Below the pieces are notes generated by a model. That model saw only the letters and a program-made list of their open reading frames with translations, searched no databases and was not told the origin of the DNA. From a virus: a DNA stretch of 64,000 bases. The position numbers were made by a program, and so were the translations under genes. Position 1 is the first letter of the stretch, and each line of letters begins with the position of its first letter. The stretch is taken from positions 18,908 to 82,907 of the IMG/VR virus record IMGVR_UViG_3300025162_000041. The stretch is one strand, 5' to 3'. Positions 124 through 56,756 of this stretch are shown here, one piece after another.

Positions 124-1387
124 ATTCTTGGAGTCAGAAAGCCCCTTCGGCTTTAGCCAAGGGGATGAATGACGACCATATTAAGGAAATAAAAATAAAA
201 TGACATTTTCCTTAAAGTCAATGATATGTATGTCCGTGAATGTAAAACGAAACTACAAGTTTAGGTTGTCTCCCAAAGGAGGAACGCTGACCCGTCTTGA
301 ACAGACGAGAGAAACTTGTCGCTACGTCTATAACCAACTCCTTGAGAAGCGAAACGACCACTATGAGAAAACCAAGAAGACACTCACTCATTTTGATTGT
401 TGTAAAGTGATTAAGGAGATGGAACTGAAAACTCCAGTCCATTCCCAAGTCCTCCAAAACGTATCTGCACGACTTGACCTTGCCTATCTTGGGTTCTTCC
501 GTAGGTTGAAGGATAAGACAGGTAAAGCAGGATTTCCACGATTTAAGTCCTATGACCGATATGACTCATTCACTTTTCCACAAACGGGTTTTAAGTTGAC
601 TCCAAAGAAACTTTGGATGTCCAAGATTGGTGATGTTCGGATTAACCTCCACCGCAAAATGGAAGGTAAGATTAAGACCCTGACCATTAAACGTGAAGGC
701 AATCATTGGTATGCTATTTTCTCATGTGAGGTTGAGATTAAACCAGAAGTTAAGAAGTGGAAACGAGCAGTTGGTATTGACGTTGGATGTATTGACTTTG
801 CCACTTGTTCCGATGGGACGATCATTTCTCATCCTCATTTCTTACGACAATCTTCCGAGAAACTTTCCAAAATCCAAGGTAAGTATTCCAAACTAAAAAA
901 GAAACCAAGGGATGATAAGCAGAAGATTAAGACCAAGAGAGCATTGGTATCGGTTCATTGCAAAATAAAGAACCAACGAAAAGATTTCCTACACAAGTTG
1001 AGCAAGAAGTTCGTAAGCGAATACTCTCATATTTGCGTGGAGGATATTAAACCAAGTCAGATGTTGAATGACAACTGGCGAAGTTTGAATAAGAGCATAT
1101 TGGACTCAGGATGGACTACGTTTAGACAAATGCTACATAGCAAAGCGGTAGATGCTGGTTGTGAAGTGAATGACGTAAATCCTGCCTATACGAGTCAGAT
1201 GTGTTCTGGTTGTGGCAACATTGAGATAAAGAAACTCTCTGATAGGCAACACAAATGTAATCTTTGTGGATTGGACATTGGAAGAGATTTGAATGCTGCA
1301 CGAAACATTTTAAGAGTCGGAATGGACTCTTTTGCTTCCAAAAGAAGCATGGAAGCCCCTATCCCTTTAGGGTAGGGGAGCATTCAC
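124..1387 (+). mobile_element. IS200/IS605-family element carrying tnpB only (no tnpA)
   Basis: Left end: TTAC target at 120-123, then AAAG guide and hairpin cccctt-cggctttagcc-aagggg. Right end: GAAG, hairpin cccctatccc-ttta-gggtagggg, then TCAC ending at 1387. The tnpB ORF lies between them. Confidence 0.9.
230..1375 (+). CDS. tnpB: TnpB RNA-guided endonuclease
   Basis: N-terminal YKFRL/RYVYN helix-turn-helix region; RuvC motifs GIDVG, VEDI and RDLNAA all intact; zinc finger CSGCG...CNLCG. ATG at 230 preferred over 200. Confidence 0.95.
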   Translation: MSVNVKRNYKFRLSPKGGTLTRLEQTRETCRYVYNQLLEKRNDHYEKTKKTLTHFDCCKVIKEMELKTPVHSQVLQNVSARLDLAYLGFFRRLKDKTGKAGFPRFKSYDRYDSFTFPQTGFKLTPKKLWMSKIGDVRINLHRKMEGKIKTLTIKREGNHWYAIFSCEVEIKPEVKKWKRAVGIDVGCIDFATCSDGTIISHPHFLRQSSEKLSKIQGKYSKLKKKPRDDKQKIKTKRALVSVHCKIKNQRKDFLHKLSKKFVSEYSHICVEDIKPSQMLNDNWRSLNKSILDSGWTTFRQMLHSKAVDAGCEVNDVNPAYTSQMCSGCGNIEIKKLSDRQHKCNLCGLDIGRDLNAARNILRVGMDSFASKRSMEAPIPLG

Positions 1388-1408: not shown

Positions 1409-2053
1409 ATGTATAAAGGCAAGACAAACATAGAAATTGTAAAAAGTTATTTGGAAGGAGAAAAGTTATTTCCTGTATTCGGTTATACTGGCAAAGAATA
1501 CGTCAAACGAGCCATAGGAGAGCGTTGGATTGATAAATCGAATCAAGAGTGGGAGCAGAAGGCAGGTGGCCCTCAGAAGATCAATAGGGTGGCAAATATC
1601 GTGCGTGCGGCTATTGGCAATCAAAAATGCCGATGTGGTCAACAAATTCGGTGGGGTACTAAATTAGATAGATTATTTTTTAACAAAACTGGATTATGTG
1701 AAGGATGCCTCATTGATTATGAAACTAAATTACGTGTGTTGGGTATTTACAACGATTACGAGAAATACAAACTAGCTTCCAATGAACTTGGACATGTCAA
1801 GGACATGAAAACCAAAATCCGCGAGACAATTAAGTATTTCGAGTCCGATGACACCGACGTTAAGATGCTGTGTAATTCCGAAGGGTTCGTGGAGAGATGG
1901 AGGACAACCAATATCGAAGATATTCTTAAAGATGCCAGGAAAGATTTGAAGGAGGCTCATCAACGTATTGTTGCGCTAGTGAGAATTCGGGACGAACAAA
2001 AAGTAAAGTATATCGAGGCTTGCGCCAAATATAAATTGGAAACTATATGCTAG
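1409..2053 (+). CDS. hypothetical protein upstream of terminase (CxC...CxxC motif)
   Basis: 214-aa ORF with RBS-like aaggaag; overlaps the terminase start. Confidence 0.75.
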   Translation: MYKGKTNIEIVKSYLEGEKLFPVFGYTGKEYVKRAIGERWIDKSNQEWEQKAGGPQKINRVANIVRAAIGNQKCRCGQQIRWGTKLDRLFFNKTGLCEGCLIDYETKLRVLGIYNDYEKYKLASNELGHVKDMKTKIRETIKYFESDDTDVKMLCNSEGFVERWRTTNIEDILKDARKDLKEAHQRIVALVRIRDEQKVKYIEACAKYKLETIC

Positions 2054-7900: not shown

Positions 7901-10762
7901 CTTAAGGAAAATGACAGTTTAATGCCATTTTATAGAAAATTAAGTCCTGAAAAGGGTGGAATGAATAAATATGAAATGGTGTATAATCCACGGTCTAATA
8001 AACATGAATATACGCATCGGGTTGTTGCGGAATCCTGCGGAATAAAAACCGACAAAACGAATAGAATTTTACACCACAAAAATTTTAATAAATATGACAA
8101 TTCGCCCATAAACTTAGTTCCGATGGAGTTTTTTGAACACCGCAATCTTCATTCTGAACATTGTATTAAAACTCTACACACCCCAGAAGTCATTGAAAAA
8201 AGAAGAAAAAGTTTGGATAAATATCTTCGTTCAAATGATAGGAAAGAAAGACTTAGTAGAGAAATGAAGGGGGTAAAAGTAAAGTATTTTCAAGATTATA
8301 ATAACTCGGACTTACATGCTATCCATAACGAAATACGGTCAAAATTAAAAACTGAAATGTGGGCAGACCCGTCTCGTAGAGCGGTAGCAATCGGAAATAT
8401 GAAGATGGGGTGGACTCCTGAACGCCGAGAGTTAGCGAGTAAGAGAATGAAGGAATTTAGAAAAAATGGAGTTTTAACAAATCATAAAGTAAAATGTATT
8501 GAAATAATAAATGAAAATACTGATGTATACTGTATGACTGTCGTTGGTCCTGGTGGGGAACAGGATAGACACAATTTTGCTATATGCGGAAAGGATATGG
8601 AAGGAAACATAACCAAAACTAGTGGCGTATTTATTAAAAACTGTAAATATGGTGATTTTTTCTTAAAACTATATATTACACCCGAGTATGGTATTTACAT
8701 GGTCGAGCCAATTTCGGCTTACAATGTAGAACGGATTGAAAATTCTGATCCTACTAATAAGCGATATGTCAAGTTCCAACTTCGTCCTTCGGATACATCA
8801 CAGGCTGAAATTCTTGAAAATTATGAAGTAGCTCATTTTCGACTTATTTCCGATTCGAATTTTTTGCCCTACGGCAAGTCGATGATTGAAGGTGGAAGGA
8901 GGGTATGGAAGCAACTTTCACTCATGGAAGACGCTATGCTTATCAGTCGTATCATGCGTGCTCCTGAAAGACGTATTTTCTATACTGATATTGGCAATAT
9001 TCCGCCGAATGAAGTGGACGCTTACATGCAGAAAATGATGGATAAGATGAAGAAAGTGCCATATATTGATGAGCAAACGGGCGAATACAATCTTCGATTT
9101 AACCTTCAGAACATGATTGAGGATTATTATATTCCAGTTCGTGGTGGTGATAGTGGAACTAAGATTGATTCATTACCTGGAATGGAATGGACGGGTATTG
9201 ACGATCTTGAGTATATCAAGACGAAGATGATGGCAGCACTTAAGATTCCAAAAGCCTTTTTAGGATATGACGACGCAATAGCAGGTAAAGCTACTTTGGC
9301 TTGTGTTGTTCCCGAGACACGAGTACCTTTGCTCAACGGACTTACAAAAACAGTAAAAGAACTAATTGATGATTATAACAACGGTATAAAAAATTATGTT
9401 TATTCCATTGATGAAGAAACCAAAAACATTGTTCCGGGTGAAGTAGAATGGGCAGGATTCACTAGAATGGATACTGATGTTGTGCGAGTTTATTTGGATA
9501 ATACACAATATATTGATTGCACTTCTGACCATCGTTTTATGACGAGAGATGGCAATTGGCTGGAAGCCAAGGATTTAGTGGAAGGACAATCATTAATGCC
9601 ATTATATAGAAAAAATCAAATAATGCGTAAAAAACTGGATTATGAAATGGTTTATAATCCCTCTGCGGGGCGACCAAGGGCGGTTAAAAACCATAAAGTA
9701 ATAAAAATAGAACTATTATCCGAAAGAAGAGATACGTGTGACATAACAATAAAAAAGTATCATAACTTTGCAACTTCGGCGGGAGTTATTGTCCACAATT
9801 CGGAGGATGTGCGATTTGCTCGTACTATTCAACGTTTACAACGTATTATTACATCAGAACTTAGCAAGATTGCTATTGTTCATTTATATGCTCAAGGTTA
9901 CCGTGACGAATCGCTTGTTGATTTTGAACTTGAACTGACTAATCCATCGACCATTTTCGAGAAGGAGAAGCTTGAAATTTGGCAGGATAAAGTGAGTGTA
10001 TCCATTGATATGGTAGAGAACAAGTTTTTCTCTTATAAATGGATTTACAAGAATATATTCAATATGTCTGAAGACGACATTGAGCAAGTGCAAGAAGAAG
10101 TTGTTGAAGATGCCAAGCAGCGTTATCGTTTCACCAAGATTGAAGAGGATGGCGATGATCCAGCCAAACCATTCAAGAAGATAGGTGGAAAGGGTGACGG
10201 GGATGATAAAGATAAAGGTGGTCTTGGAGGTCTTGACATTGGTGGTGGAGGCGGTGGTGGAGGCGGTGGTGGAGGCGGTGGGCTTCCAGATCTAGATGAC
10301 CTTGGCGACATTAGCCCCGAAGGTGGGGAAGGAGAAGAAGGTGAGGAGGGAGAGGGCGAAAAAGAAGAAGAACTTCCCGACCTTACGAAAATTAAGGAAG
10401 TTGTAGAAGACACGCGTGATCGCAGTGATAGGGATCAAAGTGACCGAGATCAAAGTGACCGACACCAAGATGGTGAAAAGAAAGCTCCTAATACAACAGA
10501 AGATCCAATTGGTCGTCTTGAACGTTCTGCAACACCAAAGAAAAAGAGCGAGGGAAAGAGAGTTAGTGCCATTCAACATAATTACGAAGGTGGCACTCCA
10601 TTGCGCTTACGTGAGAGAGCATCTCCACCTATAGATAAGGGTATGATTAGTAGTCTTTCTGACTTCCTTAAAAAGACTCAGCCAGAGACCAAACAAGAAC
10701 TCTTGCGAGAGAATCAATTGACGAGAAGCAAGTCTATGTTAGATGAAACTCAATTGCTATAG
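4937..10762 (+). CDS. portal protein (T4 gp20-like) with four inteins
   Basis: Portal motifs EDAMLISRIMRAPERRIFYTDIGN, EDYYIPVRGG and EDVRFARTIQRLQ; about 700 aa after removing the inteins. Confidence 0.95.
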   Translation: MPTNTNMSLKPFDDEILDVKKQSLYARLKRLFSTDVIVRNVGGKQLKIKDTDSIMYATDRNSLRDRFNRIRSTAYNAYTRDFALSYQAARMDLFRDYDCVGPDTIIPLPDGSRPTIKELTEKYKDKPQERFYVFSYDHETDSIKLGRAFHPRKKGGGTREGFKVTFDDGQYVIGSIKHPFLMRNGEYKMIYDLKVGDSVMPFYQKDFYGHGYRHLYNFSRGWQSEHKIVAEQFERPLKENEVVHHRNFNKTNNSPDNLQIMIESEHKAYHCKIIADKLWSPENKQKTINKVQASEGYKNRKCHKWNGERQGGNNPFYGKTHTEESNEKRSKTLKEVFVNRDQNGNKNPKYRKDLTIEVLRIKANEYYKKNGKLTLWGLIKDIGCDYTTIQNRFRYYNCDWDTFKNDVVSTLNHKIKSIESIGQIDVYDVTVEQFANFATDSVFVKNTMDMDPILSCLSGDTCISTLNGFVPIKELAEKYSGDETFKVWSWDKDSQKLTVGNAHHPRKTGTKSVIEVHLDNREVLKCTSDHRIMLVDGTYKEAGQLMSGDSLMPFYHRQNRNGYQEIKSLGKRFKCTHRYIFEDVLTEQDLVGSNIHHKNHNKLDNRLENLELMTALEHMRLHGISPITKGKKSINSKEWWENLEYRTKCSGALKKYQASDEGKKMMSEHTSLINTERWKNDSDYALKMASIFSEHAKSMWSDPVWKEWKRKKHSETMRLKYANDPIFREQIKRVGHENGRYKDLVTTESILIEGTKYNSLVEFARIFDFNGLVFKNDQYKCQFISRRLKEAGYDGWTDYRNKFEYSNHKVTKIVDNNEVVDVYDLTVDIYENFAIKQGIILSNSALDIFSDECLTYNEVGKMITVHSTNNNVKRILENLFDEILNVRFNLWSWTRNMPVKYDSYIPLLSGENIRIDELSKRVKSGEEIWVYSVQDGTNQTVPGKVIWCDKNYISDKTIKVIFDDNSYVETAPEHPFILRDGQEKRAEELKENDSLMPFYRKLSPEKGGMNKYEMVYNPRSNKHEYTHRVVAESCGIKTDKTNRILHHKNFNKYDNSPINLVPMEFFEHRNLHSEHCIKTLHTPEVIEKRRKSLDKYLRSNDRKERLSREMKGVKVKYFQDYNNSDLHAIHNEIRSKLKTEMWADPSRRAVAIGNMKMGWTPERRELASKRMKEFRKNGVLTNHKVKCIEIINENTDVYCMTVVGPGGEQDRHNFAICGKDMEGNITKTSGVFIKNCKYGDFFLKLYITPEYGIYMVEPISAYNVERIENSDPTNKRYVKFQLRPSDTSQAEILENYEVAHFRLISDSNFLPYGKSMIEGGRRVWKQLSLMEDAMLISRIMRAPERRIFYTDIGNIPPNEVDAYMQKMMDKMKKVPYIDEQTGEYNLRFNLQNMIEDYYIPVRGGDSGTKIDSLPGMEWTGIDDLEYIKTKMMAALKIPKAFLGYDDAIAGKATLACVVPETRVPLLNGLTKTVKELIDDYNNGIKNYVYSIDEETKNIVPGEVEWAGFTRMDTDVVRVYLDNTQYIDCTSDHRFMTRDGNWLEAKDLVEGQSLMPLYRKNQIMRKKLDYEMVYNPSAGRPRAVKNHKVIKIELLSERRDTCDITIKKYHNFATSAGVIVHNSEDVRFARTIQRLQRIITSELSKIAIVHLYAQGYRDESLVDFELELTNPSTIFEKEKLEIWQDKVSVSIDMVENKFFSYKWIYKNIFNMSEDDIEQVQEEVVEDAKQRYRFTKIEEDGDDPAKPFKKIGGKGDGDDKDKGGLGGLDIGGGGGGGGGGGGGGLPDLDDLGDISPEGGEGEEGEEGEGEKEEELPDLTKIKEVVEDTRDRSDRDQSDRDQSDRHQDGEKKAPNTTEDPIGRLERSATPKKKSEGKRVSAIQHNYEGGTPLRLRERASPPIDKGMISSLSDFLKKTQPETKQELLRENQLTRSKSMLDETQLL
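5231..6274 (+). mobile_element. portal intein 1 (HNH + NUMOD3, 348 aa)
   Basis: CVGPDT...VYDVTV...VFVKN|T; HNH motif VHHRNFNKTNNSPDNL; NUMOD3-like NPFYGKTHTEES. Confidence 0.9.
6302..7465 (+). mobile_element. portal intein 2 (HNH, 388 aa)
   Basis: CLSGDT...TSDH...VYDLTV...ILSN|S; HNH motif IHHKNHNKLDNRLENL. Confidence 0.9.
7628..8641 (+). mobile_element. portal intein 3 (HNH, N-terminal Pro, 338 aa)
   Basis: Removing PVKYDS...VFIKN restores WSWTRNM|CKYGDFF; block B TAPEHP, block F VYCMTV, HNH motif LHHKNFNKYDNSPINL. Confidence 0.85.
9302..9799 (+). mobile_element. portal intein 4 (mini-intein, 166 aa)
   Basis: CVVPET...TSDH...IVHN|S; endonuclease deleted, with only a YEMVYNP remnant. Confidence 0.9.
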
Positions 10763-13004: not shown

Positions 13005-13883
13005 GTGATACCTTCTCTTAAACGAATTGTAGAGTCCTATGGAGCCGAGGGTCAGTATTATGACCTTGGTAAGGATTTTTCTGCATTTCGTAGAATGATT
13101 GATGGTGCTGATCAGCAAGTCAAGCAGCAATATGAGAAACAAATTGCGTCTAAACTTGTAGGGAAACGTGTTCGGGCAAATGCTTCGCGGGGGTATAAGC
13201 AGTTTATAAAAAGTTATGAGTTTGATGTTGTCCGAGTCACATTGGATGATTACTATGATAACTTTGTAGTAATAGCCTATGATAGTACGACTCCAAAACC
13301 AAAGGAATATTTTCTTAAGACGGGGTTCAAAATTCAGATTCTCGGACCTGCTACAGGGCAACCTTCTCCGCAAAAGGGAGGAGACCCTCGCTTCGAGAAG
13401 CCCAAACAGGTTGGTCCAATGCCCATTCAACCTGGACAGAATCCTAATGTAGCTCAATCACAGCCTATGGCATTAGCACCAGCGGGAGCAACTCCGAAAG
13501 AGACTCCGATGGAAGAAAATAAAGAGCAAGATGGACTTTATGATGCTTATGGAATGGATGAAATTTCTCAAGACATCAAAAGATGGATGCCAAAGCTGCT
13601 TAAGAAGCCAGAAACTCAACTACGTGAGTTTATTAAAGGGCTTGGATGGAAGAAGAATCTCGATAAAGGAACTACGGTGGCATTATTCGATTTAAGAATT
13701 CCTTCCATTATGGTTAAGCCTAACAATAATGAGCAAACCATTCGGGATATGCTTGCACAAGAGAGTGCGAACCCAAGGCCGGGGGAAAAGGCGGGAACAC
13801 GGTATGAATTGGTTAAATGTGAACCCGACCAAGAAAAAGGCGAATGGACTGTTCGCATAAAGAAAGTAATCTCACAAGTATGA
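13005..13883 (+). CDS. hypothetical protein
   Basis: GTG start with RBS aagga; N-terminus IPSLKRIVES; stop overlaps the protease ATG. Confidence 0.65.
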   Translation: MIPSLKRIVESYGAEGQYYDLGKDFSAFRRMIDGADQQVKQQYEKQIASKLVGKRVRANASRGYKQFIKSYEFDVVRVTLDDYYDNFVVIAYDSTTPKPKEYFLKTGFKIQILGPATGQPSPQKGGDPRFEKPKQVGPMPIQPGQNPNVAQSQPMALAPAGATPKETPMEENKEQDGLYDAYGMDEISQDIKRWMPKLLKKPETQLREFIKGLGWKKNLDKGTTVALFDLRIPSIMVKPNNNEQTIRDMLAQESANPRPGEKAGTRYELVKCEPDQEKGEWTVRIKKVISQV

Positions 13884-15619
13884 ATACACAAAAGAAACTC
13901 TTAATGGAATGCATTACGTTTGAAGCAAATCCACGAATGCTTCGAGAGTCAACATTGCATCCTAATCAGCCGTTTACGGTACAGGGGGTTCTGCAACGCA
14001 AAGGCAAAAAAAATCAAAACGGACGTATATATCCCGACGAGATTCTTATTCGTGAAGCCAATAAATATGCTCAGACGTTCATCCAAGACCATCGTGCTAT
14101 GGGGGAATTAGATCATCCAGAATGTTATCGGGTTGGTGCAGAAATATTTACGAATAGTGGATGGAAAGATTTACGAAATGTGGTTGTTGGTGAGTTAATA
14201 CCAACGTTGAATACGGTTACGAATACCATAGAATATAATCCAATTGAGCGAGTTATAAATGAACAATATAACGGTAAAATGGTATCTATTAAAGGAAAAA
14301 ATATAGATATTCTAGTTACTCCAAATCATAGATTTATTCTACAAACTAGATCAGATAGAGAACAACAAGTTATAGAAAAAACTGCCCAAGAAATATTGAA
14401 CATTTCTAAATTAACAAGAAATACACATTTATCCATTCCTATCGTAGCGGAAAATTGGAATGGATATAAGTATGATATCTATAAAATAGATGCTATTAAT
14501 ATTGAGGACATTGCCAATAATCAATCAAAAGATTATAATATTAAACAAACCACGGCACTTAATTTAGATGCCTCAGCATGGTTTTCGTTTCTTGGATTTT
14601 ATTTGGCAGAAGGACATTGTTCGGATAGAACAAATCGGAACGGTTATGAAATATTTATTACGCAAAATAAGGGAGAAATAGCAGATAAGTTTAGAGAAGT
14701 ATTGCATAATTTGAGTTCCGAATTAAAATGGAATGAGTGGGATAAAGGTGATAATGCAATTACGTTTAATACTTCTGATGCCCGTTTATGGACATATCTT
14801 TCCAAATTGGGAACTAAATATACTAAATATATTCCGCAAGATATAAAGAATGCTTCGTCTGAGTTATTGCAAAATTTGTATGATTGGTTTCTTAATGGAG
14901 ATGGTTCAGTGGTCGGAGATTATGAAAGGACATCTATATTTTCTGTATCTAAAAAACTGATGGAAGATTTTTATGATGTTATCCTTAAACTCGGAATGAC
15001 AGGTGTTATTAAAGAACAAATAACAACTGATGATTATATGTTTGCGGGACGATTGATTGAGGCAAAAAATAAATCTCCATTATATCGTTTATGGATTAAA
15101 GAATCAAAAGCAATTCATCTTGATTTCAGGTTTATAAAAATCGAAGAAGTGGATTATGATAGCACTGTTCATTGTGTTACTGTAAAAAATGGAACATTTT
15201 ATTGTCGGGATCATGGATTCCCTTTCTGGTCTGGAAATTCATCGGTTGTCAACCTGAAGAATGTATCCCATAATGTGCTCGAAATGCATTGGAATGGCGA
15301 TGATCTTATGGGAACTATTGAAATTCTTACGACTCCGAATGGCAACATTTTGCGTGAGCTATTTCGCAATGGTATTAAGCTTGGAATTTCAAGTCGTGGA
15401 CTTGGAACACTCAAGAAAATTTCTGAAAGTTCAGCCGTTGTTGGTGATGATTTTGAATTGATTGCGTTTGATTTTGTCTCAAATCCGAGCACTCAAGGAG
15501 CATTTATGTCTCCCGTAGGTCAAATTCCACTTTCCGAGGGTATTGTAAAAGACATGTTTACGGGGAAGTGGGCACGAACCGATGATATAGTAAGAAATAT
15601 CTTGTCCGAATTAAATTGA
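13880..15619 (+). CDS. prohead core protease (T4 gp21-like), intein-containing
   Basis: Motifs NQNGRIYP, GELDHP, LGISSRGLG and FDFVSNPS; ATG at 13880 overlaps the upstream stop (ATGA). Confidence 0.93.
   Translation: MNTQKKLLMECITFEANPRMLRESTLHPNQPFTVQGVLQRKGKKNQNGRIYPDEILIREANKYAQTFIQDHRAMGELDHPECYRVGAEIFTNSGWKDLRNVVVGELIPTLNTVTNTIEYNPIERVINEQYNGKMVSIKGKNIDILVTPNHRFILQTRSDREQQVIEKTAQEILNISKLTRNTHLSIPIVAENWNGYKYDIYKIDAINIEDIANNQSKDYNIKQTTALNLDASAWFSFLGFYLAEGHCSDRTNRNGYEIFITQNKGEIADKFREVLHNLSSELKWNEWDKGDNAITFNTSDARLWTYLSKLGTKYTKYIPQDIKNASSELLQNLYDWFLNGDGSVVGDYERTSIFSVSKKLMEDFYDVILKLGMTGVIKEQITTDDYMFAGRLIEAKNKSPLYRLWIKESKAIHLDFRFIKIEEVDYDSTVHCVTVKNGTFYCRDHGFPFWSGNSSVVNLKNVSHNVLEMHWNGDDLMGTIEILTTPNGNILRELFRNGIKLGISSRGLGTLKKISESSAVVGDDFELIAFDFVSNPSTQGAFMSPVGQIPLSEGIVKDMFTGKWARTDDIVRNILSELN
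14123..15238 (+). mobile_element. LAGLIDADG intein in prohead protease (372 aa)
   Basis: DHPE|CYRVGAE...TPNH...VHCVTV...WSGN|S; motifs GFYLAEG and FLNGDG. Confidence 0.92.
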
Positions 15620-15643
15620 CATTTTGACTTTGTTGCGATATAG
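15615..15643 (+). promoter_or_regulatory. sigma70-like promoter of endonuclease gene
   Basis: TTGACA-17 nt-TATAGT. Confidence 0.6.
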
Positions 15644-15665
15644 TATAAGCAATAAAGTCAAAATT

Positions 15666-17366
15666 ATGGATATAGAAAATTTAAAGCAATGGATAGCAAA
15701 TAATTTACAATATTCGCGTGGATTAATTTGTAAAAAGTGTAAGCGAGAATGGTTTGAGAAATATGGATTTATAGATCAGTGGGATCGGATTCATGTTGCT
15801 ACACAATTTCTAGATAATCTTTTGCCGACCTTTCCTCAGAGGGTATGGCACATTGTAAATGACAGTCTAACAGTTAAATGCAACAATCCTTCCTGTCAAA
15901 ATACGCCACAATTTTGGTCATTTAATGTTGGATATCTTCGGACATGTTCTAATTCGTGTGCTCAATATGACCCCAATACTATTAACAAAATACAGGCAAC
16001 TAATCTCAAAAAATATGGGTGCAAATATGGATTGGAGAACAGAGATATTATATTGAAGCGGGAAGTTACTATGGGTAAAAAATATGGAGTAGAGAATATT
16101 TCTCAAGTCGATGGAATATCCGAAAAAAAACAAGAGACTTGTTTAAAGAATTATGGATCGAAATGGTTTTTAGAAAGAAGTGATTTAATTAAAAAATGCA
16201 TTAATAATAAATATGGAGTGGATAATGTACAACAAGTAACGGAAATAGCAGATAAATCTTCCTGTACAAAAATGGATAATTTTTATGAGTTATTATTGGA
16301 ATCGACTCGGTTTGAAGGGAAGGTAACTCCATCTTTTTCGAAAGAAGAATACAATGGAACTTGCAGAAAATATAAATTTATATGTAATGTATGTAAATTG
16401 GAATTTGAGTATGAGTTGCGATGGGACAGGATTCCTCGGTGTCCAGTATGTTATAAAAGTTCATCAGTCTTTGAAAAAGATGTAAGCGAATATGTAAAAT
16501 CAATTTTGCCAACCGCAAGTGTTATAGAGAATACAAAGTCAGTGTTAGCAAACAATTATGAATTGGATATCTATATTCCGTCTAAAAATATTGCTATAGA
16601 ATGTAACGGATTATTTTGGCATGGAGAGGTTGGTGGGAACAAGAATAAGAATTATCATTTGTTAAAAACAATAGAATGTGAATCTAAAGGAATACATTTA
16701 ATTCATATATTTGAAGACGAATGGAACAATAAAAATCTTATTATAAAAGAAAAATTGAAATATATAATTGGAAATATTAAACCCATCTCGGTTTATGCGC
16801 GAAAATGTAAAATTATAAATGTATTTATTTCTGATAAAAAAGAATTTCTAAACCAAAATCATATACAGGGAAATGATACTTCCAAAATACATATAGGATT
16901 GGAATGGGAAAGCAAGTTGGTATCGGTAATGACATTTTCGTCTAAGCGATGTTTTATTGGATATAAGAATAAAACTAAGAACGATGAAGAATTTGAATTG
17001 TGTAGATATACATCATTGAGTGGACATAGTGTAATAGGAGGGGCGTCAAAATTACTATCATATTTTATAAAAACGTATTGTCCCAAGAAAATAATATCAT
17101 ATGCCGATAGAAGATGGACATATAGCAAAGACAATTTATATGAGAAAATAGGATTCGAGAAGGTATCGGACGGGACTCCTAATTATTGGTATTTCGGACG
17201 GGATGGAAATTATAGACGACTTCATAGATTTGGATTTAGAAAGAATGTTCTTTCCAAGAGGTTGGCGATATTTGATTCTAATCTGACAGAATGGGAAAAT
17301 ATGCAATTGAATGGATGGGATAGAATATGGGATTGCGGAAGTTTAAAATACGAAATGGCTGTTTAG
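15666..17366 (+). CDS. Hef-like free-standing homing endonuclease (repeats + Zn finger + Vsr/PD-(D/E)xK + GNAT-like C-terminus)
   Basis: KKYG repeats, ELDIYIP..NIAIECNG.FWH, IHIFEDEW, SYADRRW and RIWDCG. Confidence 0.75.
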   Translation: MDIENLKQWIANNLQYSRGLICKKCKREWFEKYGFIDQWDRIHVATQFLDNLLPTFPQRVWHIVNDSLTVKCNNPSCQNTPQFWSFNVGYLRTCSNSCAQYDPNTINKIQATNLKKYGCKYGLENRDIILKREVTMGKKYGVENISQVDGISEKKQETCLKNYGSKWFLERSDLIKKCINNKYGVDNVQQVTEIADKSSCTKMDNFYELLLESTRFEGKVTPSFSKEEYNGTCRKYKFICNVCKLEFEYELRWDRIPRCPVCYKSSSVFEKDVSEYVKSILPTASVIENTKSVLANNYELDIYIPSKNIAIECNGLFWHGEVGGNKNKNYHLLKTIECESKGIHLIHIFEDEWNNKNLIIKEKLKYIIGNIKPISVYARKCKIINVFISDKKEFLNQNHIQGNDTSKIHIGLEWESKLVSVMTFSSKRCFIGYKNKTKNDEEFELCRYTSLSGHSVIGGASKLLSYFIKTYCPKKIISYADRRWTYSKDNLYEKIGFEKVSDGTPNYWYFGRDGNYRRLHRFGFRKNVLSKRLAIFDSNLTEWENMQLNGWDRIWDCGSLKYEMAV

Positions 17367-17377
17367 AGCATATTTAT

Positions 17378-17666
17378 CTTTTAGGGAGCAGAAAACTCCT
17401 TGGTCTTCAGCCAAGGAGATGAATGCGACCCACAAATATAATTAGCTGACTTCTTCTGTGTCATAATATATATTGGTAATATGATTGAATAAGAGACGAT
17501 AACCAAGTCTCACAACACAATCGAAAAATAATTTTCTGGTTAAGAAACCAGATAACGGTCGGAACGACCGTATAAGCCGTCTGTCTTGACATAAGACTTT
17601 GTTAGAAATAACGAAGCAGTTGATTGGGTCGGAAACACCTACGTCTTTAGCGTAGGGGTAGTTCAT
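17378..17666 (+). mobile_element. ORF-less IS605 mini-element (promoter + omega-RNA-like scaffold)
   Basis: TTAT target, AAAA guide and left-end hairpin; CTGACT-17-TATATT promoter; acggtcggaacgaccgt hairpin; right end GAAA-hairpin-gtagtTCAT. Confidence 0.82.
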
Positions 17667-17673
17667 ATCCATA

Positions 17674-18501
17674 ATGAATAATATCAAAACATTTCTGAAA
17701 CAATGCATTGCAGAAGTATTGGTTGAGCCAGCAAAGCAATTCAATCGTCTGCAAGGAAAGAAAATGCGTTCACTGATAAAGCAGTGTATCGCAGAAGTTA
17801 TAATTGAGCCTGTTTCACGTAAGATGAAGGTATATGGAAATCCTAAGCGTCTTCAAATGGCTCACTTAATTAAAGAATGCGTAATGGAGGTTTTGAAAGA
17901 AAACCTATTGTCCGAAATTTTCGATCCTCAATCTCAAGGTCCAAATATGGTGGAAGAAAATCCGTATCCAGCGATGAATGCCAAGATGCGGATGATGGAC
18001 GAGCAAGAAAATAAGCCCAAAGAAGATGCGTGGACAAGATATGAAAAAGGATATGATGCTGGTCAAGTCCATAAGAGAAGTGGTATAAAGCCAGAAGGTC
18101 CGATGGATTCCGTAACTTCGGTTGGTTATCATGATGCACTCAAAGGAAAGGCTAAATCTTCTCCCGAAGTTGTTCGAAAGACTATTAAAGAAACCGAACC
18201 CCAGGGGCGTTACTCCAAACAAATAGGGGTAACTCCATCTCAGTCTTCTAGCGATACAAATATTGCGGAATATGAAAACTATCTCAAGGAAGCAAGTCGT
18301 ACACAATCTACCAGTATTCATTGGACTTGTCCGCATTGTGGAAAATTGACTAATATTGATGTTGAAATTGAATCTTCCTCTGATTATATTGCTTGTGCCG
18401 ACTGTGAGCATTGCGGCAAAGAAATCAATAGTCCAAAGTTAGATCAACAAATTTATAAAACCGTTGTCGATCATTGTTCTAGTCAACAACCCCTACCCTA
18501 A
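17674..18501 (+). CDS. hypothetical protein with 3x IKQCIAEV-type repeats and C-terminal Zn ribbon
   Basis: CPHCG...CEHCG; the last codons derive from the IS end at 18482. Confidence 0.7.
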   Translation: MNNIKTFLKQCIAEVLVEPAKQFNRLQGKKMRSLIKQCIAEVIIEPVSRKMKVYGNPKRLQMAHLIKECVMEVLKENLLSEIFDPQSQGPNMVEENPYPAMNAKMRMMDEQENKPKEDAWTRYEKGYDAGQVHKRSGIKPEGPMDSVTSVGYHDALKGKAKSSPEVVRKTIKETEPQGRYSKQIGVTPSQSSSDTNIAEYENYLKEASRTQSTSIHWTCPHCGKLTNIDVEIESSSDYIACADCEHCGKEINSPKLDQQIYKTVVDHCSSQQPLP

Positions 18502-18516
18502 AGGGATAGGGGCTTG
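18482..18516 (-). mobile_element. solo IS605 right end
   Basis: Minus strand reads CAAG-cccctatccctttagggtagggg-ttgtTGAC; the hairpin is identical to that at 1356-1378. Confidence 0.75.
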
Positions 18517-18598
18517 TAATACTTCTCTACTAAAGGCAGGATGCAATTATTTGATACTTGACTTCGTATCCACCTGTGTTATATTGGTGGCGAAAATC

Positions 18599-20601: not shown

Positions 20602-22230
20602 CTATGGATTAGTCCATTCATACTTCAAACTTCCACAGTCCCATATTCTATCCCATCCATTCAACTGCATATTTTCCCATTCAGTAAGTATCGGGTCAAA
20701 TGTTTGTAATTTTTTGGAAAGTTCTGTTTTTCTGAATGCAAATCTATGAAATCGTTTTTGATAATTGTGTTTATTTATATACCAATAATTTGGAACTCCA
20801 TCCGATACCTTTTGAAACCCAATTTTTTCATAGAGATTTCCTTTGCTCCATCGTCGGTCCGCATATGATACAATTTTGCGGGGGCTGTATTTTTTGATAA
20901 AATATGATAAGAGTTTTCCAGCTATTCCAACAACATTTTTTGATGTGGCAAATCGTATAAGTTCATATGTGTCATTGAAATGAGATTTTTTATATCCCAT
21001 AATTTTTCTTAATTTTCCAAAAGTCATTACCGAAACTAATTCGGAATTATAATATGCTCCGATATGAATGGATGATTTATCGGAGCCTTGAATATGATAC
21101 ATATTTAGAAATTGACATCCGTCGGGAAATGATATTTCTCGCAATGTACATTTTCTAGCATAAATCGAATTTTCTATAGATATATTGAGAATATGAGATA
21201 ATTTTCTTTTAACTATCTCCTTTTTATTTATCCATTCGTCTTCAAATATTTGAATTAGATAAATCCCTCTATCTTTACATTTTTCCGTTTTATTTAAATG
21301 ATATAATTTCGATTTTCCGCCAGCAATTTCGGAATGATAATAGTTCCCATTTAGTTCTATTGCTATTTTTTCCTTGGGCAAATAAATATCTATCTCAAAT
21401 TTATTATCAAATTCTTTCCTGCAATTAAATCTTATAATTCCATTGTATATCTTTTGTATGAATTCTTTTAATTCATTTTCTATTTGAGAACGAGGCATTG
21501 GATTACATTTATAGCACTGAACACCTATGTAATTATTCTCAAATTCGTTTCCGCATTTTGTACATTTAAACTGATACAATTTCCCTTTGTTGAATCCTAT
21601 GAATTCAGTTTGAGAAAATTGAGGAATAATTGATGTATTTTCAAGAAGTTTATCGTATATTTTTTTACACCAAGTCATAGATGTTTTTCGGGAAATTTCG
21701 GGCAACATCATTGGGTGTATTACTCCGTATTTCTTTACATTATTTTGATGGGTGTTATTTTTTACTGTTTCGGACGATTTACTATATTCCAATCCATATT
21801 TTATCAGATTGGTTTGTTTTATTTTTTCAATGATTGATGGCAGTCGAAAAACATTATCTACGCCGTATTTGTCCAAACATCCTTGTTTAGATCTCGTTTG
21901 TATCTCGGAAGATGACATTGCTTCGATAGTTCCAAATTTCTGAAGACATGTTTTTTGAACCCGCCTTCTTATTTCAGGAGATAATCCAGCGTTGGTTACC
22001 CCATAGGTTTTCATTGTTGAATTTTCCCGTTTTTTTACAATACATTTTTTGCCACAACACGTGTCAATTTCGGACTCGGAATTTCGACGAGCCATGAATA
22101 TTTTCTCCGAGGATTTTTCAAATATAATGCCACAGATGTCACACTTTGCTATAATAATTCGGCTGGAAAATTTCCCTGTGGAATTCGGGTCGATGTTGTA
22201 CTTTCGAATTGTTTCTTCGTGTAAAATCAT
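20602..22230 (-). CDS. Hef-like homing endonuclease
   Basis: Paralog of 15666: EIDIYLP, IAIELNG, IFEDEW, SYADRRWS and RIWDCG; own TTGACA-16-TATACT promoter. Confidence 0.75.
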   Translation of the reverse strand: MILHEETIRKYNIDPNSTGKFSSRIIIAKCDICGIIFEKSSEKIFMARRNSESEIDTCCGKKCIVKKRENSTMKTYGVTNAGLSPEIRRRVQKTCLQKFGTIEAMSSSEIQTRSKQGCLDKYGVDNVFRLPSIIEKIKQTNLIKYGLEYSKSSETVKNNTHQNNVKKYGVIHPMMLPEISRKTSMTWCKKIYDKLLENTSIIPQFSQTEFIGFNKGKLYQFKCTKCGNEFENNYIGVQCYKCNPMPRSQIENELKEFIQKIYNGIIRFNCRKEFDNKFEIDIYLPKEKIAIELNGNYYHSEIAGGKSKLYHLNKTEKCKDRGIYLIQIFEDEWINKKEIVKRKLSHILNISIENSIYARKCTLREISFPDGCQFLNMYHIQGSDKSSIHIGAYYNSELVSVMTFGKLRKIMGYKKSHFNDTYELIRFATSKNVVGIAGKLLSYFIKKYSPRKIVSYADRRWSKGNLYEKIGFQKVSDGVPNYWYINKHNYQKRFHRFAFRKTELSKKLQTFDPILTEWENMQLNGWDRIWDCGSLKYEWTNP

Positions 22231-23239: not shown

Positions 23240-23935
23240 TTACTTCTCTTCTCCATCTTCGGCTCCTTCTGGTTGGCCTTCTTCTTCCGCCGATTCATAT
23301 TTAGAAAATGCGGTCCAGCAAAATTGATTTCCTTCTTTTACTTTCTTAATTACAGTAGTAGTGTTTTTTCCGAAGTCATCGGTCATTTCATATTTCAATA
23401 AGAACTTATCACTACTTGTAGGTTTCTCATGCGAAAGTCCAAGTTTAGCTAGAAACCTAATTAAAATATTAGCTCCTTCAGTTTCATTAATAAAGGTAAT
23501 GCTTTTTTGAATACGAATTTTGTCATCTATAGTTGTCTCATCATCCTCGGATGGTTCGTTGGCAGCAGTATTGGATGGAGTTGATTGCATTGGCTGAGCT
23601 GGTTGCATTGGCTGGGCTGTTTGGGCGGGAGGATATGATGCTAACTCGGTTACTAATGCCTGCCGTTCCTTCGGTGTCATTTCAATACCACGACATTGAT
23701 TTACATAGCTATCAAAATCTGCGTTGGTATCAAATGTCTTAGCAATTACGTTTGGTTGTGGACGAGAATCTCCGCCTGTAAATTCATTTTCGGATACTGA
23801 TAGATTTCCGCTTGCTGGAATATCAGTTTCTCCACCAATACATCCTTCTTTGAATTTTCGTAAGCCAACAAGAAGCTTACGCTTCTGATCTTCACTCATT
23901 TGTTCTTTTAATGCTCTCAGCCGCTTGATGTTCAT
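23240..23935 (-). CDS. hypothetical protein
   Basis: 231-aa ORF; its start codon abuts a mini-element left end. Confidence 0.65.
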   Translation of the reverse strand: MNIKRLRALKEQMSEDQKRKLLVGLRKFKEGCIGGETDIPASGNLSVSENEFTGGDSRPQPNVIAKTFDTNADFDSYVNQCRGIEMTPKERQALVTELASYPPAQTAQPMQPAQPMQSTPSNTAANEPSEDDETTIDDKIRIQKSITFINETEGANILIRFLAKLGLSHEKPTSSDKFLLKYEMTDDFGKNTTTVIKKVKEGNQFCWTAFSKYESAEEEGQPEGAEDGEEK

Positions 23936-24332
23936 GTTTTTCCTTTCGTTGCGGAAACCCCTATCCCTTTAGGGTAGGGGATGAGCAACGAAATATAATT
24001 GATAATTTCTGTTGACATGTTTCTTAGTTCCTGTTATATATATCACAGTTCTTTGGTATATAGTTTGGATAGCAGAAAATAATTGCTTCTATCCAGTAAA
24101 ATCAATCAAGCATCGTTTTTGTGAATAGACCAGAAGGCACTCCGCTTGCGGAGGAACCGTTATGTAGGGTCTTTGACTCACAATCAACATCCTCCTCGTT
24201 GCCCGTTAAGGGCAAGCTGGAAGGCAGGCCACGGTCAATTGGCCAATCGTCTGTAAATCTTTCTTGAATTATGTTAAGCATAAGCATTAGAGTCTGGCAA
24301 GCCCCGACCCTTCAGGGTCGCGGGTAGTTGAC
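23936..24332 (+). mobile_element. ORF-less IS605 mini-element encoding a structured omega-RNA-like ncRNA
   Basis: TCAT target; left-end GAAA and hairpin; TTGACA-17-TATATA promoter; right end CAAG-ccccgaccc ttca gggtcgcggg-tagtTGAC; homologous to 56401-56756. Confidence 0.82.
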
Positions 24333-42062: not shown

Positions 42063-42168
42063 ATACCTTAAAAATTTGTCTATCCTATAAATATAAATTG
42101 CCGCTATCAATCGGCAATAATAAAATAACTTGATGTTTTATTGTTTTTGACTTATATTGAAAGGTAAT

Positions 42169-43941: not shown

Positions 43942-43955
43942 CATCTTCGTGGCAA

Positions 43956-44004
43956 GAAATCCCACTTGCTTTAGCGGGTCTCCTTTAGGGGATGGGTAGT
44001 TCAT
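43956..44004 (+). mobile_element. solo IS605 right end (double hairpin)
   Basis: GAAA-tccca[cttgc ttta gcggg][tctcc ttta gggga]tggg-tagtTCAT. Confidence 0.65.
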
Positions 44005-51177: not shown

Positions 51178-51682
51178 ATGGTGAATGCTCCCAACCTCTA
51201 AAGAGATTGGGCTTCTATGGTTCTTTAACGAGTACCAATGGAGTCCATCCCGAATCCAAACTCAAATTGTATGACATTGCTTGAAACATTATTCCGTATG
51301 GAAAGGTTAATTAGACCTTCGTCAGCATCTTCCGCTTTGCGATTGGTTTCTCCCAATGTTGTCCATCATAATATATGATTGAGAAACAGAAAGCAACTTA
51401 TTATATTCGTGGGTCGCCATTCATCCCAAGGTCTAAAGACGCTTGGGTTTTCTGGCGACACGGAGATAAAACTGAAAGCATTACTGGAAGGAACGGGGAT
51501 ATCGGTGGTTGTTTGTCACGGAAAAACGTCCACACGATATTGAGGGTTATGGAGATTATATATATAAAATTTATATTAAGAACGCCGTGTGTATTCTCGA
51601 TGATCCGTATGGTGCCAATGATATTGCATATGCATATGTGTATCACATAAGCAATCCGCCAAAATGGGAATCGTATGATTAA
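51178..51682 (+). pseudogene. disrupted gene MIKLKALLEGTGISVVVCHG...
   Basis: ATG at 51178-51180 joins ATAAAACTGAAAGCATTACTGGAA at 51466 once the element is removed; the downstream part (YGDYIYKIYIKN...WESYD*) is in another frame. Confidence 0.6.
51181..51465 (-). mobile_element. ORF-less IS605 mini-element, omega-RNA cognate to the tnpB at 230-1375
   Basis: Minus strand: TTAT target, AAAA and left-end hairpin, TTGCTT-17-TATTAT promoter, gcaaagcggaagatgctg (cf. tnpB 1140-1157), gatggactc...GAAG-hairpin-agcatTCAC. Confidence 0.87.
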
Positions 51683-56372: not shown

Positions 56373-56400
56373 ACAATCACTTATATTTATACTTATATGC

Positions 56401-56756
56401 GTCAACTACCCACGACCCTAAAGGGTCGGGGCTTGCCAGAGTTTAGGTCCGACGATTGGCTTGTTGACGGTAGCCTGTCCAAAGAGTGCCTTACGGCACG
56501 AATTGGAGTGTTATCTTGTGTCATTGAAATACGCTCGGGGGGGAGCAAACTAATTGAATAGCGTTGTATTTCTCGACAAGAAACGATGCTTAATTGATTT
56601 TACTGGATAGAAGCAATTATTTTCTGCTATCCAAACCATATACCAAAGAACTATGTATAATATAGCGGAAACCGAGAAAGATGTCAATGGAAATTATTAA
56701 TTATATTTCGTTGCTCCTACCCTAAAGGGATAGAGGTTTCTGCAACGAGAAAATAT
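56401..56756 (-). mobile_element. ORF-less IS605 mini-element encoding a structured omega-RNA-like ncRNA
   Basis: Reverse complement is homologous to 23936-24332; TTGACA-17-TATATT promoter; right end CAAG-hairpin-tagtTGAC; TCAT target at 56757-56760. Confidence 0.82.

What the first reader, a model, noticed from the sequence alone, without database searches (positions are those of the whole stretch)
17371..17680. Mini-element splits the putative late promoter, and its guide covers the gene start
Seen: removing 17378-17666 yields gagcaTATTTAT|Atccata-ATG, restoring the TATTTATA motif 6 nt before gene 17674. The elements at 23936 and 56401 likewise sit between the motif and an ATG; their empty sites read caTACTTATAgagtgatt-ATGA and TATTTATActtatatgc-ATGA. 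The tnpB element follows tatatttac. Inference: TTAT/TCAT targets bias insertion to promoter/start-codon junctions, so most guides are directed at promoter/start regions. The element could also rewire the downstream gene from late to sigma70-type expression, reversibly through precise TnpA excision.
Basis: partly seen in the sequence, partly recalled or inferred. Interest (0 to 1): 0.7.

Follow-up and report, generated by a model that had tools for sequence, protein, structure and literature searches.

The report
Gene-less IS605 mini-transposon in phage promoter
A 289-base protein-free jumping element of a known kind (IS200/IS605, keeping only its two ends, a promoter and a TnpB guide-RNA scaffold) sits inside a likely late-gene promoter box just before a head-module gene of an uncultured lake-water giant phage, which is a tidy example of a known phenomenon and not a new system.

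Summary
Window 17378-17666 is a non-autonomous IS200/IS605 (PATE-like) element. It lies 3' of TTTAT, and removing it on paper gives TATTTATA, 6 nt, then the ATG of gene 17674.

TATTTATA is a real, strand-specific upstream signal: 17 of 17 intergenic or gene-end copies point at a gene, among them portal and tail genes. "Late promoter" is still an inference.

The right 114 nt of E1 matches (80%, 7 compensatory pairs) the 3' end of a full tnpB element in related phage contigs, so it is an omega-RNA module. Its guide is simply the flank and covers the ATG for that reason.

Promoter and start-codon landing is largely explained by the 5-nt targets. TTTAY lies inside the motif, TTCAT is the antisense of ATGAA, and only intergenic insertions survive. 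Extra preference is suggestive only: 7 of 14 sites against a 25% baseline (P 0.04-0.07), and 6 of 7 in the E1 subfamily (post hoc).

Rewiring to the element's own sigma70-like promoter is plausible but untested. Reversible excision is unsupported: I found no TnpA, no cognate TnpB, no empty site and no excision joint.

This scan has already reported similar mini-elements at phage late promoters on other DNA. It is a new member of a known kind.

The parts
17371..17377 (+). TATTTAT: the first 7 of 8 bases of the recurrent TATTTATA upstream motif. Its last 5 bases (TTTAT, 17373-17377) are the transposon target (and the expected TAM).
   Evidence: sequence. (motif statistics). (14 of 14 TTAY-class insertions lie behind TTTAY).
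17378..17666 (+). E1, a 289-nt non-autonomous IS200/IS605 (PATE-like) element.
   Evidence: multi-copy, unrelated flanks, sharp boundaries. No long ORF on its own strand.
17392..17418 (+). Left-end module: guide tetranucleotide AAAA (17392-17395) and hairpin CTCCTTGGTCTTCAGCCAAGGAG (17396-17418), followed by GATGAATGCGACCC as in the left end of the tnpB element.
   Evidence: Similar to the left end of the tnpB element (83% over 48 nt).
17446..17474 (+). Internal sigma70-like promoter CTGACT-17-TATATT pointing at the right end and gene 17674. Sister copies read TTGACT.
   Evidence: 9 of 12 matches. (sister copies). (C>T at 17446 in all contigs laid there).
17553..17666 (+). Omega-RNA-like scaffold and right end: guide tetranucleotide GAAA 17632-17635, hairpin 17638-17656, terminal TCAT 17663-17666.
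   Evidence: 80% identity to the 3' end of a full tnpB element. 7 compensatory pairs. Fold z = -4.5. No Rfam family.
17667..17686 (+). Predicted guide template and target: the right flank, including A17667 (eighth base of the motif) and ATG 17674-17676.
   Evidence: Position follows from how TnpB elements are built (passages of PMC10055086). The only exact match in six contigs is this site.
17674..18501 (+). Downstream gene (275 aa), a head-module protein of unknown function. Its start codon is conserved in relatives.
   Evidence: homologues at 66-68% identity start MN.. directly after the prohead protease gene.
15624..17366 (+). DUF7487 homing-endonuclease-like gene, absent at this place in relatives. 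Its stop lies 4 nt before TATTTAT (17371), 7 nt before the TTTAT target.
   Evidence: relatives jump from about 15546 to 17671. (own TTGACA-17-TATAGT upstream).
124..1387 (+). Full tnpB element behind TATATTTAC. TnpB at 200-1375 is an ISDra2 homologue.
23936..24332 (+). E2 mini-element. Its TTCAT target is the antisense of the ATGAAC start of gene 23935(-). Its left end supplies AAAGGAAAAAC before the ATG.
   Evidence: Relative L025 has TATTTATAcac directly before ATGAAC.
56401..56756 (-). E3 mini-element, same lineage as E2. Its right flank is the antisense of TATTTATA 56384-56391.
51181..51465 (-). E4 mini-element, with ends like those of the resident tnpB element. Its target is TTTAT.

Best explanation
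E1 (17378-17666) is a non-autonomous, protein-free IS200/IS605 element (a PATE-like mini-transposon). It derives from a tnpB-carrying element of the type found intact in related phage contigs (L011 type).

It keeps five features:
- the left-end hairpin;
- a sigma70-like internal promoter;
- about 110-180 nt of TnpB omega-RNA scaffold;
- the right-end hairpin;
- the two tetranucleotide 'guides' that tell a Y1 transposase where to cut.

It was pasted as single-stranded DNA 3' of TTTAT. Here those five bases are positions 3-7 of the phage's TATTTATA upstream box, most likely a T4-style late promoter, 6 nt before the ATG of a head-module gene.

An omega-RNA reads out of the right end, so its guide is necessarily the next 16-20 nt, which include the ATG. 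With a cognate TnpB, that RNA would cut only element-free copies of the site (TTTAT plus the same 20 nt). That favours retention or homing of the element and does not regulate the gene.

Insertions cluster at promoters and start codons mainly for three reasons. The targets (TTTAY, TTCAT) are embedded in TATTTATA and in the antisense of ATGAA. About 92-95% of the DNA is coding. Insertions survive only in very short spacers.

Shown: anatomy, boundaries, family, motif statistics, homology of the RNA module. Inferred: promoter identity, RNA expression, TnpB use, effect on gene 17674.
For: Anatomy and ends.

Multi-copy with unrelated flanks:
- 9 exact right-end hits in viral contigs.
- 3 stretches holding left-end hits.
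- Only the element part of 16800-18400 matches in five related contigs.
- Loose ends sit exactly at 17666 and at 17370-17388 in four runs.

Full-length relative: TTTAT target, a 400-aa TnpB and the same right end. E1 positions 176-289 are 80% identical to its 3' end. 7 of 37 predicted pairs carry compensatory changes. Fold z = -4.5.

Target: 14 of 14 independent TTAY-class sites read TTTAY, and 4 of 4 TCAT-class sites read TTCAT.

Motif: 35 occurrences, of which 17 are intergenic or at a gene end, and 17 of 17 are sense-oriented. The motif stands upstream of portal and tail genes and 113 nt upstream of 24564, the first gene of the block that holds the major head protein gene 26178. A relative keeps TATTTATAcac-ATGAAC.

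Baselines: 23 of 64 and 7 of 21; 158 of 639.

Relatives lacking the intein, the endonuclease gene and E1 show this spacer is a recent construct.

Guides match only their own flank in 455 kb.

PATEs that encode omega-RNAs used in trans are described in passages of PMC10055086.
Against: - No empty site for E1 could be retrieved. The insertion is therefore inferred from family behaviour and not seen directly.
- No Y1 transposase in six contigs.
- No cognate TnpB in the contig. The contig is only about 23% of the genome by CheckV.
- No Rfam family matches the RNA module.
- The covariation rests on two sequence groups only.
- E1-like copies sit behind ATATTTAT in 6 of 7 cases (P about 0.001). A purely compositional account does not predict this.
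- There is no transcript evidence at all: no RNA run is listed.
Confidence: 0.8

Rival explanations
1. Active promoter targeting. The E1-like subfamily really prefers the 8-nt promoter core ATATTTAT and not merely TTTAT. Possible causes: the melted non-template strand of a busy late promoter offers the single-stranded target; recognition extends beyond 5 nt; or only insertions at that exact point leave the downstream gene expressed, because the element brings its own promoter.
For: 6 of 7 independent E1-like left ends follow ATATTTAT, with unrelated sequence further out. P about 0.001 against per-contig baselines. All 3 sites in contig G003 follow the motif, against an 18% baseline. Earlier notes of this scan report the same on other phages (these are leads only).
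Against: - The subfamily was picked after seeing the data.
- Across all TTAY-class sites the count is 7 of 14, P = 0.036 to 0.071.
- Full-length and micro-elements of the same family sit behind CATTTTAT, TCATTTAT, TTTTTTAT and GGATTTAT.
- One E1-like copy follows a tRNA 3' end (CCAATTTAT).
- My gene calls are crude (longest-ORF heuristic).
Confidence: 0.3
2. Exapted regulatory cassette. The element is kept because its sigma70-like promoter switches gene 17674 from late to early or host-polymerase expression, or because its RNA guides a TnpB to the promoter and start region as a repressor or as a weapon against sister phages.
For: - The internal promoter is conserved in position in E1, E2, E3 and sister copies.
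- No terminator-like site on the + strand between it and the ATG.
- The resident TnpB has intact D/E/D motifs by alignment to ISDra2 TnpB.
Against: - The E1 -35 box is the weakest of the family (CTGACT).
- No cognate TnpB in the contig.
- The guide has no second target. The occupied site is preceded by GTTCAT and not by TTTAT, so the phage's own copy is not a target.
- No expression data.
- Relatives express the gene with no promoter of its own, directly behind the protease gene.
Confidence: 0.12
3. The ATATTTAT box is part of the element: the element carries its own late promoter at its left edge. Nothing was split.
For: BLAST identity between E1 and two sister copies begins at 17370 and not at 17378. 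Three copies with a different first 11 nt still share GATATTTAT.
Against: - One copy shares only ATTTAT, and relatives of the family share only TTTAT.
- The left-end guide AAAA predicts cutting after TTAT.
- In this family the target stays outside the mobile segment (established for IS608; recalled).
Confidence: 0.05

Closest known systems
PATE-like minimal IS200/IS605 elements that encode omega-RNAs (Geobacillus stearothermophilus; Meers et al., PMC10055086, passages read)
   Same: - Left and right ends with hairpins.
- No protein gene.
- Retained guide-RNA scaffold at the right end.
- Several copies per genome.
- Depends on TnpA and TnpB supplied in trans.
- Sits 3' of a short fixed motif without a target duplication.
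   Different: - It lives in an uncultured giant phage from lake water, not in a bacterial chromosome.
- It carries a sigma70-like promoter in place of the tnpB ORF.
- Its 5-nt target is embedded in the phage's own upstream box.
- No TnpA and no cognate TnpB are visible in the 23% of the genome available.
ISDra2 / IS608 (IS200/IS605 family with Y1 TnpA and TnpB; structures 8H1J, 8EXA)
   Same: - The resident TnpB aligns to ISDra2 TnpB over residues 19-375 (E = 8e-50).
- Pentanucleotide target next to the left end.
- Cleavage sites are predictable from tetranucleotides 5' of the hairpins (this rule for IS608 is recalled).
   Different: - E1 has no genes.
- Its cognate TnpB (L011 type) is only 31% identical to the resident one.
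- The target is TTTAT and not TTGAT or TTAC (the latter two are recalled).
T4-type late promoters (TATAAATA, no -35 box; recalled)
   Same: - An 8-bp A+T-only box without a -35 element.
- Strictly oriented.
- Stands in front of portal, head, tail and other structural genes.
   Different: - The sense strand reads TATTTATA.
- In 6 cases, and at the reconstructed E1 site, it stands only 3-7 nt from the ATG. That would imply leaderless or near-leaderless mRNAs.
- No transcript start has been mapped.

Membership tests
IS200/IS605 non-autonomous element (PATE-like) | Subterminal hairpins at both ends, with no terminal inverted repeats | tested here: met
   Hairpins at 17396-17418 and 17638-17656, of the same design as the ends of the tnpB element.
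IS200/IS605 non-autonomous element (PATE-like) | Insertion 3' of a fixed 4-5-nt motif without a target-site duplication | tested here: met
   TTTAT lies before the left end. The right flank ATCCATA is not a repeat of it. 14 of 14 sites in the family read TTTAY.
IS200/IS605 non-autonomous element (PATE-like) | Cleavage sites specified by a tetranucleotide 5' of each hairpin | tested here: met
   AAAA predicts TTAT and GAAA predicts TCAT for E1. The same rule fits the tnpB element, E2, E4 and E6 by my reading. The offset of 0-3 nt to the stem leaves some freedom.
IS200/IS605 non-autonomous element (PATE-like) | Several copies with unrelated flanks (mobility) | tested here: met
IS200/IS605 non-autonomous element (PATE-like) | An element-free allele of the same site | tested here: inconclusive
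   Relatives at 72-78% nucleotide identity lack the whole spacer. Flank patterns found nothing in the viral and metagenome collections. No joint in the contigs of 4 runs.
IS200/IS605 non-autonomous element (PATE-like) | A Y1 TnpA available in trans | tested here: not met
   PF01797 found in 0 of 1 (own contig) and 0 of 5 related contigs. All are fragments (12-34% complete). The host genome is unknown. The hairpin was found once among the bacterial species representatives, inside an apparently unrelated region with no transposon-end features beside it.
TnpB omega-RNA | Scaffold homologous to the 3' end of a tnpB gene and ending at the right end | tested here: met
   E1 positions 176-289 against L011/L004/L009/L010: 80% over 114 nt. 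The tnpB ORF runs into the hairpin.
TnpB omega-RNA | Conserved secondary structure | tested here: met
   37 predicted pairs, 7 with changes on both sides, but from only two sequence groups. Minimum free energy z = -4.5.
TnpB omega-RNA | Cognate TnpB in the same genome | tested here: not met
   Only two TnpBs in the contig, each 30-31% identical to the L011 type. 77% of the genome is unseen.
TnpB omega-RNA | Transcribed and bound by TnpB | not testable with these tools
   No RNA run is listed.
T4-type late promoter | Oriented box upstream of late (structural) genes | tested here: met
   17 of 17 intergenic or gene-end copies are sense-oriented. The box stands before portal, tail and peptidase genes and before the block holding the major head protein gene.
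T4-type late promoter | Transcript starts a few nt downstream, and a phage late sigma factor | not tested
   No RNA data. I did not search for a gp55-like factor.

The most novel reading that the evidence does not exclude
A lineage of promoter-carrying, protein-free omega-RNA cassettes in giant phages homes preferentially into the melted core of late promoters (ATATTTAT). Each cassette (a) is read through by late transcription, (b) re-drives the downstream gene from its own host-type promoter, and (c) arms a trans-encoded TnpB against element-free sister phages at an essential gene start. This would be an RNA-guided analogue of the homing-endonuclease marker exclusion seen in T4.
Probability: 0.15. 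Interest if true: 0.65.

Novelty: new member of a known kind. Interest (0 to 1): 0.36.

Why it matters
The finding shows, with exact coordinates, how a 5-nt transposon target that happens to be part of a phage's promoter box funnels selfish RNA-guided elements to gene starts. In a phage, nearly every other insertion would be lethal. If the modest excess at ATATTTAT holds up, it would give a testable case of promoter-directed single-strand transposition. It would also be a case of RNA-guided homing between co-infecting phages. As it stands, it is a well-documented example of a described element type, and this scan has already reported similar cases in other large phages.

Tried and rejected
- Rfam: 0 matches at gathering thresholds on the whole window. 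With permissive E-values on 17300-17750, only two chance-level hits (E = 2 and 8.9).
- INPHARED phages, blastn with E1: no match.
- Empty site: relatives of gene 17674 gave 3 loci, all lacking the whole spacer. Left-flank and right-flank patterns found 0 stretches in metagenome contigs and 0 in viral contigs.
- Relatives of gene 50468, to check the E4 site: none confirmed.
- Excision: 4 runs laid, all Logan contigs, no joint. No piece spans the whole stretch, and the assemblies break inside the repeat. Raw reads were not available.
- RNA: no RNA holder listed.
- Host or TnpA source: the 19-nt hairpin occurs once in the bacterial species representatives, in an Abditibacteriaceae MAG, with no transposon-end features beside it. 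I judged it a chance match.
- Trans targets of the guides: none with 2 or fewer mismatches plus a TAM in six contigs.
- Literature: 'IS605 + late promoter + bacteriophage + insertion' gave 0 papers. 'TATTTATA + promoter + phage' gave 204 papers, and none of the 12 I saw listed was relevant. 'TnpB + jumbo phage' gave 10 papers (9 listed); I read passages of one. I read passages of a cyanophage tnpB preprint. Supplements were closed and not consulted. Lists of PATEs or insertion sites in them could bear on the novelty claim.
- Rejected reading: that E2 and E3 lie in the same orientation as the genes they precede. End similarity puts E2 on + and E3 on -, antisense to the ATGAA they abut.
Full report
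**Setting**

The window is bases 18908-82907 of an 82.9-kb IMG/VR viral contig that CheckV rates 23% complete. It is therefore a fragment of a phage genome of roughly 360 kb.

The stretch around the finding is held by 11 freshwater and lake-water metagenome runs from 5 studies, 9 of them with at least half of the sampled words.

The window covers the structural module:
- terminase large subunit, 2047-4878;
- portal with HNH/intein-like inserts, 4937-10762;
- prohead protease with an intein, 13844-15619;
- major head protein, 26178-27908;
- a tail protein, 61471-62862.

**The observation**

One search shows the stop of gene 15624-17366 at 17364-17366, followed by agcaTATTTAT (TATTTAT = 17371-17377). 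Next comes a 289-nt block, 17378-17666, that begins CTTTTAGGGAGCAGAAAACTCCTTGG and ends CCTACGTCTTTAGCGTAGGGGTAGTTCAT. After it comes A-tccata-ATG (ATG at 17674).

The start codon is the true one: homologues in three related contigs begin MN.. at the same aligned position.

**What the block is**

Its two ends have the design of the ends of the tnpB element at 124-1387, whose TnpB has the Pfam domains PF12323, PF01385 and PF07282.
- Left: a hairpin followed by GATGAATG.CGACC.
- Right: a hairpin followed by GGG(G)(T)AG..T.A(C/T).

The tetranucleotides just 5' of the stems (AAAA at 17392-17395, GAAA at 17632-17635) predict cleavage after TTAT and TCAT. The rule is guide N1-A-A-N4 gives site T-comp(N1)-A-comp(N4). 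That a tetranucleotide 5' of the hairpin specifies the cut site is established for IS608; I recall this and did not read it here. Both predictions match the observed junctions.

The block is multi-copy and mobile:
- The last 29 nt occur exactly in 9 stretches of other viral contigs.
- The left hairpin occurs in 3 stretches.
- When 16800-18400 is searched in five of those contigs, only the element part matches.
- In four metagenome runs, contigs that cover the element run on into unrelated sequence exactly behind 17666 and before 17370-17388 (table 7).

Sister copies are 93-98% identical. The element's own strand carries no long ORF. E1 is therefore a non-autonomous IS200/IS605 element of the PATE type.

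**The RNA module**

In contigs L004, L009, L010 and L011 the same right end closes a 1.4-kb element. That element has TTTAT before its left end and a 400-aa TnpB whose ORF runs into the right hairpin.

E1 positions 176-289 (window 17553-17666) are 80% identical to that 3' end. An alignment of two E1-type and two full-length sequences folds into one consensus structure with 37 pairs, 7 of which changed on both sides. These are only two independent sequence groups, so the support is modest. E1's last 200 nt fold with z = -4.5 against shuffles. No Rfam family matches.

I read this as an omega-RNA scaffold inherited from a tnpB element.

The cognate TnpB is not in the contig. The resident TnpB (200-1375) is 31% identical to the L011 type, and a second one upstream of the window is 30% identical. 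The resident TnpB is a clear ISDra2 homologue (E = 8e-50 over residues 19-375), with GIDVG, CVEDI and GRDLNAA aligned to the ISDra2 motifs that I recall as the RuvC D/E/D.

E4 (51181-51465) and an element upstream of the window carry right ends like the resident tnpB element (74-76%). E2, E3 and a copy at the contig start form a third lineage.

**The motif**

TATTTATA occurs 35 times on both strands of the contig. Sixteen copies lie wholly in non-coding DNA (5-8% of the contig, depending on which ORFs are counted) and one overlaps the end of a gene. All 17 are on the sense strand upstream of a gene, 3-113 nt from the ATG once elements are discounted.

The motif precedes the portal, a tail protein, a peptidase and the gene block that holds the major head protein.

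A relative whose product is 42% identical has TATTTATAcac directly before the ATGAAC of the homologue of gene 23935.

By contrast, the three DUF7487 endonuclease-like genes and a few others are preceded by TTGAC(A/T)-16/17-TATAnT.

A T4-style late promoter is the most economical reading. The T4 consensus TATAAATA is recalled. No transcript start is known here. In six cases, and at the reconstructed E1 site, the box stands only 3-7 nt from the ATG. That would mean leaderless or near-leaderless mRNAs, and I cannot check it.

**History of the spacer**

Three relatives at 72-78% nucleotide identity lack three things: the protease intein (14122-15238), the endonuclease-like gene 15624-17366, and E1. 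In them the protease stop abuts or overlaps the start of the 17674 homologue (TAAttATG, TAATG).

The 18-nt spacer that carries TATTTATA is thus itself recent. It arose with or after the endonuclease gene, and E1 is a later layer.

I could not retrieve an element-free allele of this exact site.

**Why promoters and start codons**

The target is 5 nt.
- All 14 independent TTAY-class insertions I could read follow TTTAY: 4 in this contig, 9 in five related contigs and 1 in a metagenome contig.
- All 4 TCAT-class insertions follow TTCAT.

TTTAT is positions 3-7 of TATTTATA, and TTCAT is the antisense of ATGAA.

In this contig, 691 of 769 TTTAY sites are coding and 64 have an intergenic junction. 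23 of those 64 lie in TATTTAY. Of the 21 intergenic TTCAT sites, 7 are ATGAA gene starts.

Observed counts in this contig are 2 of 4 and 2 of 3, which is no excess.

Pooling six contigs gives 7 of 14 against a baseline of 158 of 639 (24.7%). That is P = 0.036 with the pooled baseline and P = 0.071 with per-contig baselines.

The E1-like left ends alone give 6 of 7 behind ATATTTAT, with unrelated sequence further out (P about 0.001). I picked that subgroup after seeing the data, and my gene calls are a longest-ORF heuristic.

The eighth base A is restored in 1 of 4 readable right flanks (A, G, T, T).

My verdict is that composition plus survival in tiny spacers explains most of the pattern, and a real extra preference of the E1 subfamily remains possible.

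**The guide**

An omega-RNA runs out of the right end, so its guide is the flank (passages of PMC10055086). For E1 that is 17667-17686, which contains the ATG.

The other guides:
- tnpB element: the leader of gene 1409.
- E6: the ATG at -9030.
- E2 and E3: the antisense of TACTTATA and TATTTATA.
- E4: a stop codon and an ATG.

With spacers this short, any guide would land on such signals.

None of the seven guides has a second match with a TAM in 455 kb. The occupied E1 site is preceded by GTTCAT and not by TTTAT, so the phage's own copy would not be cut. This is the standard retention and homing logic of TnpB elements and is not a regulatory design.

**Rewiring and reversibility**

E1 carries CTGACT-17-TATATT at 17446-17474, pointing at the gene. 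Sister copies read TTGACT, and every contig laid at 17446 reads T. E2 and E3 carry TTGACA-17-TATATA at the equivalent place.

The + strand has no terminator-like site between this promoter and the ATG. The - strand has three.

Read-out into gene 17674 is therefore plausible, as is read-through from upstream. Neither is tested.

After insertion the box reads TATTTATC, and whether that still works is unknown.

For reversibility I found no Y1 transposase in the own contig or in five related contigs. All are fragments, so absence from the virus is not shown. I found no excision joint and no bacterial source of the hairpin.

**Comparison and novelty**

PATE-like IS200/IS605 elements that encode omega-RNAs used in trans are described (PMC10055086, passages). 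TnpB genes in phages are reported (PMC12607003 and a cyanophage preprint, passages).

A search for IS605 plus late promoter plus bacteriophage plus insertion returned no paper.

Earlier follow-ups of this scan describe similar mini-elements at late promoters of other large phages. I treat these as leads, but they show the pattern is recurrent.

I file E1 as a new member of a known kind.

Noticed in passing
window 18482-18520 (- strand): A solo right-end-like hairpin (26 nt identical to the right end of the tnpB element, ending GTTGAC) overlaps the stop codon of gene 17674-18501 and replaces its last codons. Relatives L001 and L003 carry about 2.7 kb of extra genes at this junction, so a deletion next to an old insertion is likely.
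   Followed up: partly
window 43942-44004: A short right-end-like remnant (double hairpin ending GGGTAGTTCAT) lies directly after the stop of the third DUF7487 endonuclease-like gene and overlaps the stop of gene 44001-45203(-).
   Followed up: no
window 23925-23945; contig start (window -18726 to -18704): Two E2-type elements abut an ATGAA(C/T) start in antisense. Their left ends read AAAGGAAAAA(C/T) directly before the ATG, so each supplies a ribosome-binding-like site to the gene it displaced from its leader.
   Followed up: partly
window 51178-51480: E4 sits (antisense) directly after an ATG. Without it, the frame would read MIKLKALLEG.., an N-terminus shared by several genes here, but it stops after 27 codons. 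This is probably a disrupted small gene.
   Followed up: partly
window 14122-15238; 15624-17366, 20602-22230(-), 42157-43941: The prohead protease carries an intein with a LAGLIDADG domain that relatives lack. Three paralogous DUF7487 endonuclease-like genes each have their own sigma70-like promoter. The portal gene carries several HNH-like inserts. The structural module is crowded with selfish elements.
   Followed up: partly
L006 7640-7700, L008, L012 (related contigs G001, G002): 55-nt micro-elements: TTTAT, about 20 nt of left end, one hairpin, then the right-end tail GGTAGTTCAT. A single hairpin serves as both ends.
   Followed up: no
L007 4560-6108 (contig G003): Two E1-family copies bracket a tRNA cluster (Leu-CAA, Gly-TCC, Gly-CCC). 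One variant joins the E1 left half to a different right module that ends TTTTTCAC. The inverted terminal repeats that IMG/VR records for G002 and G003 end at, or consist of, these elements and may be assembly artefacts.
   Followed up: partly
contig bases 2927-4102 (window -15980 to -14805): A second tnpB element (352-aa TnpB, 30% identical to the first) with different end guides (TTGAA at the left, TCAA at the right).
   Followed up: partly
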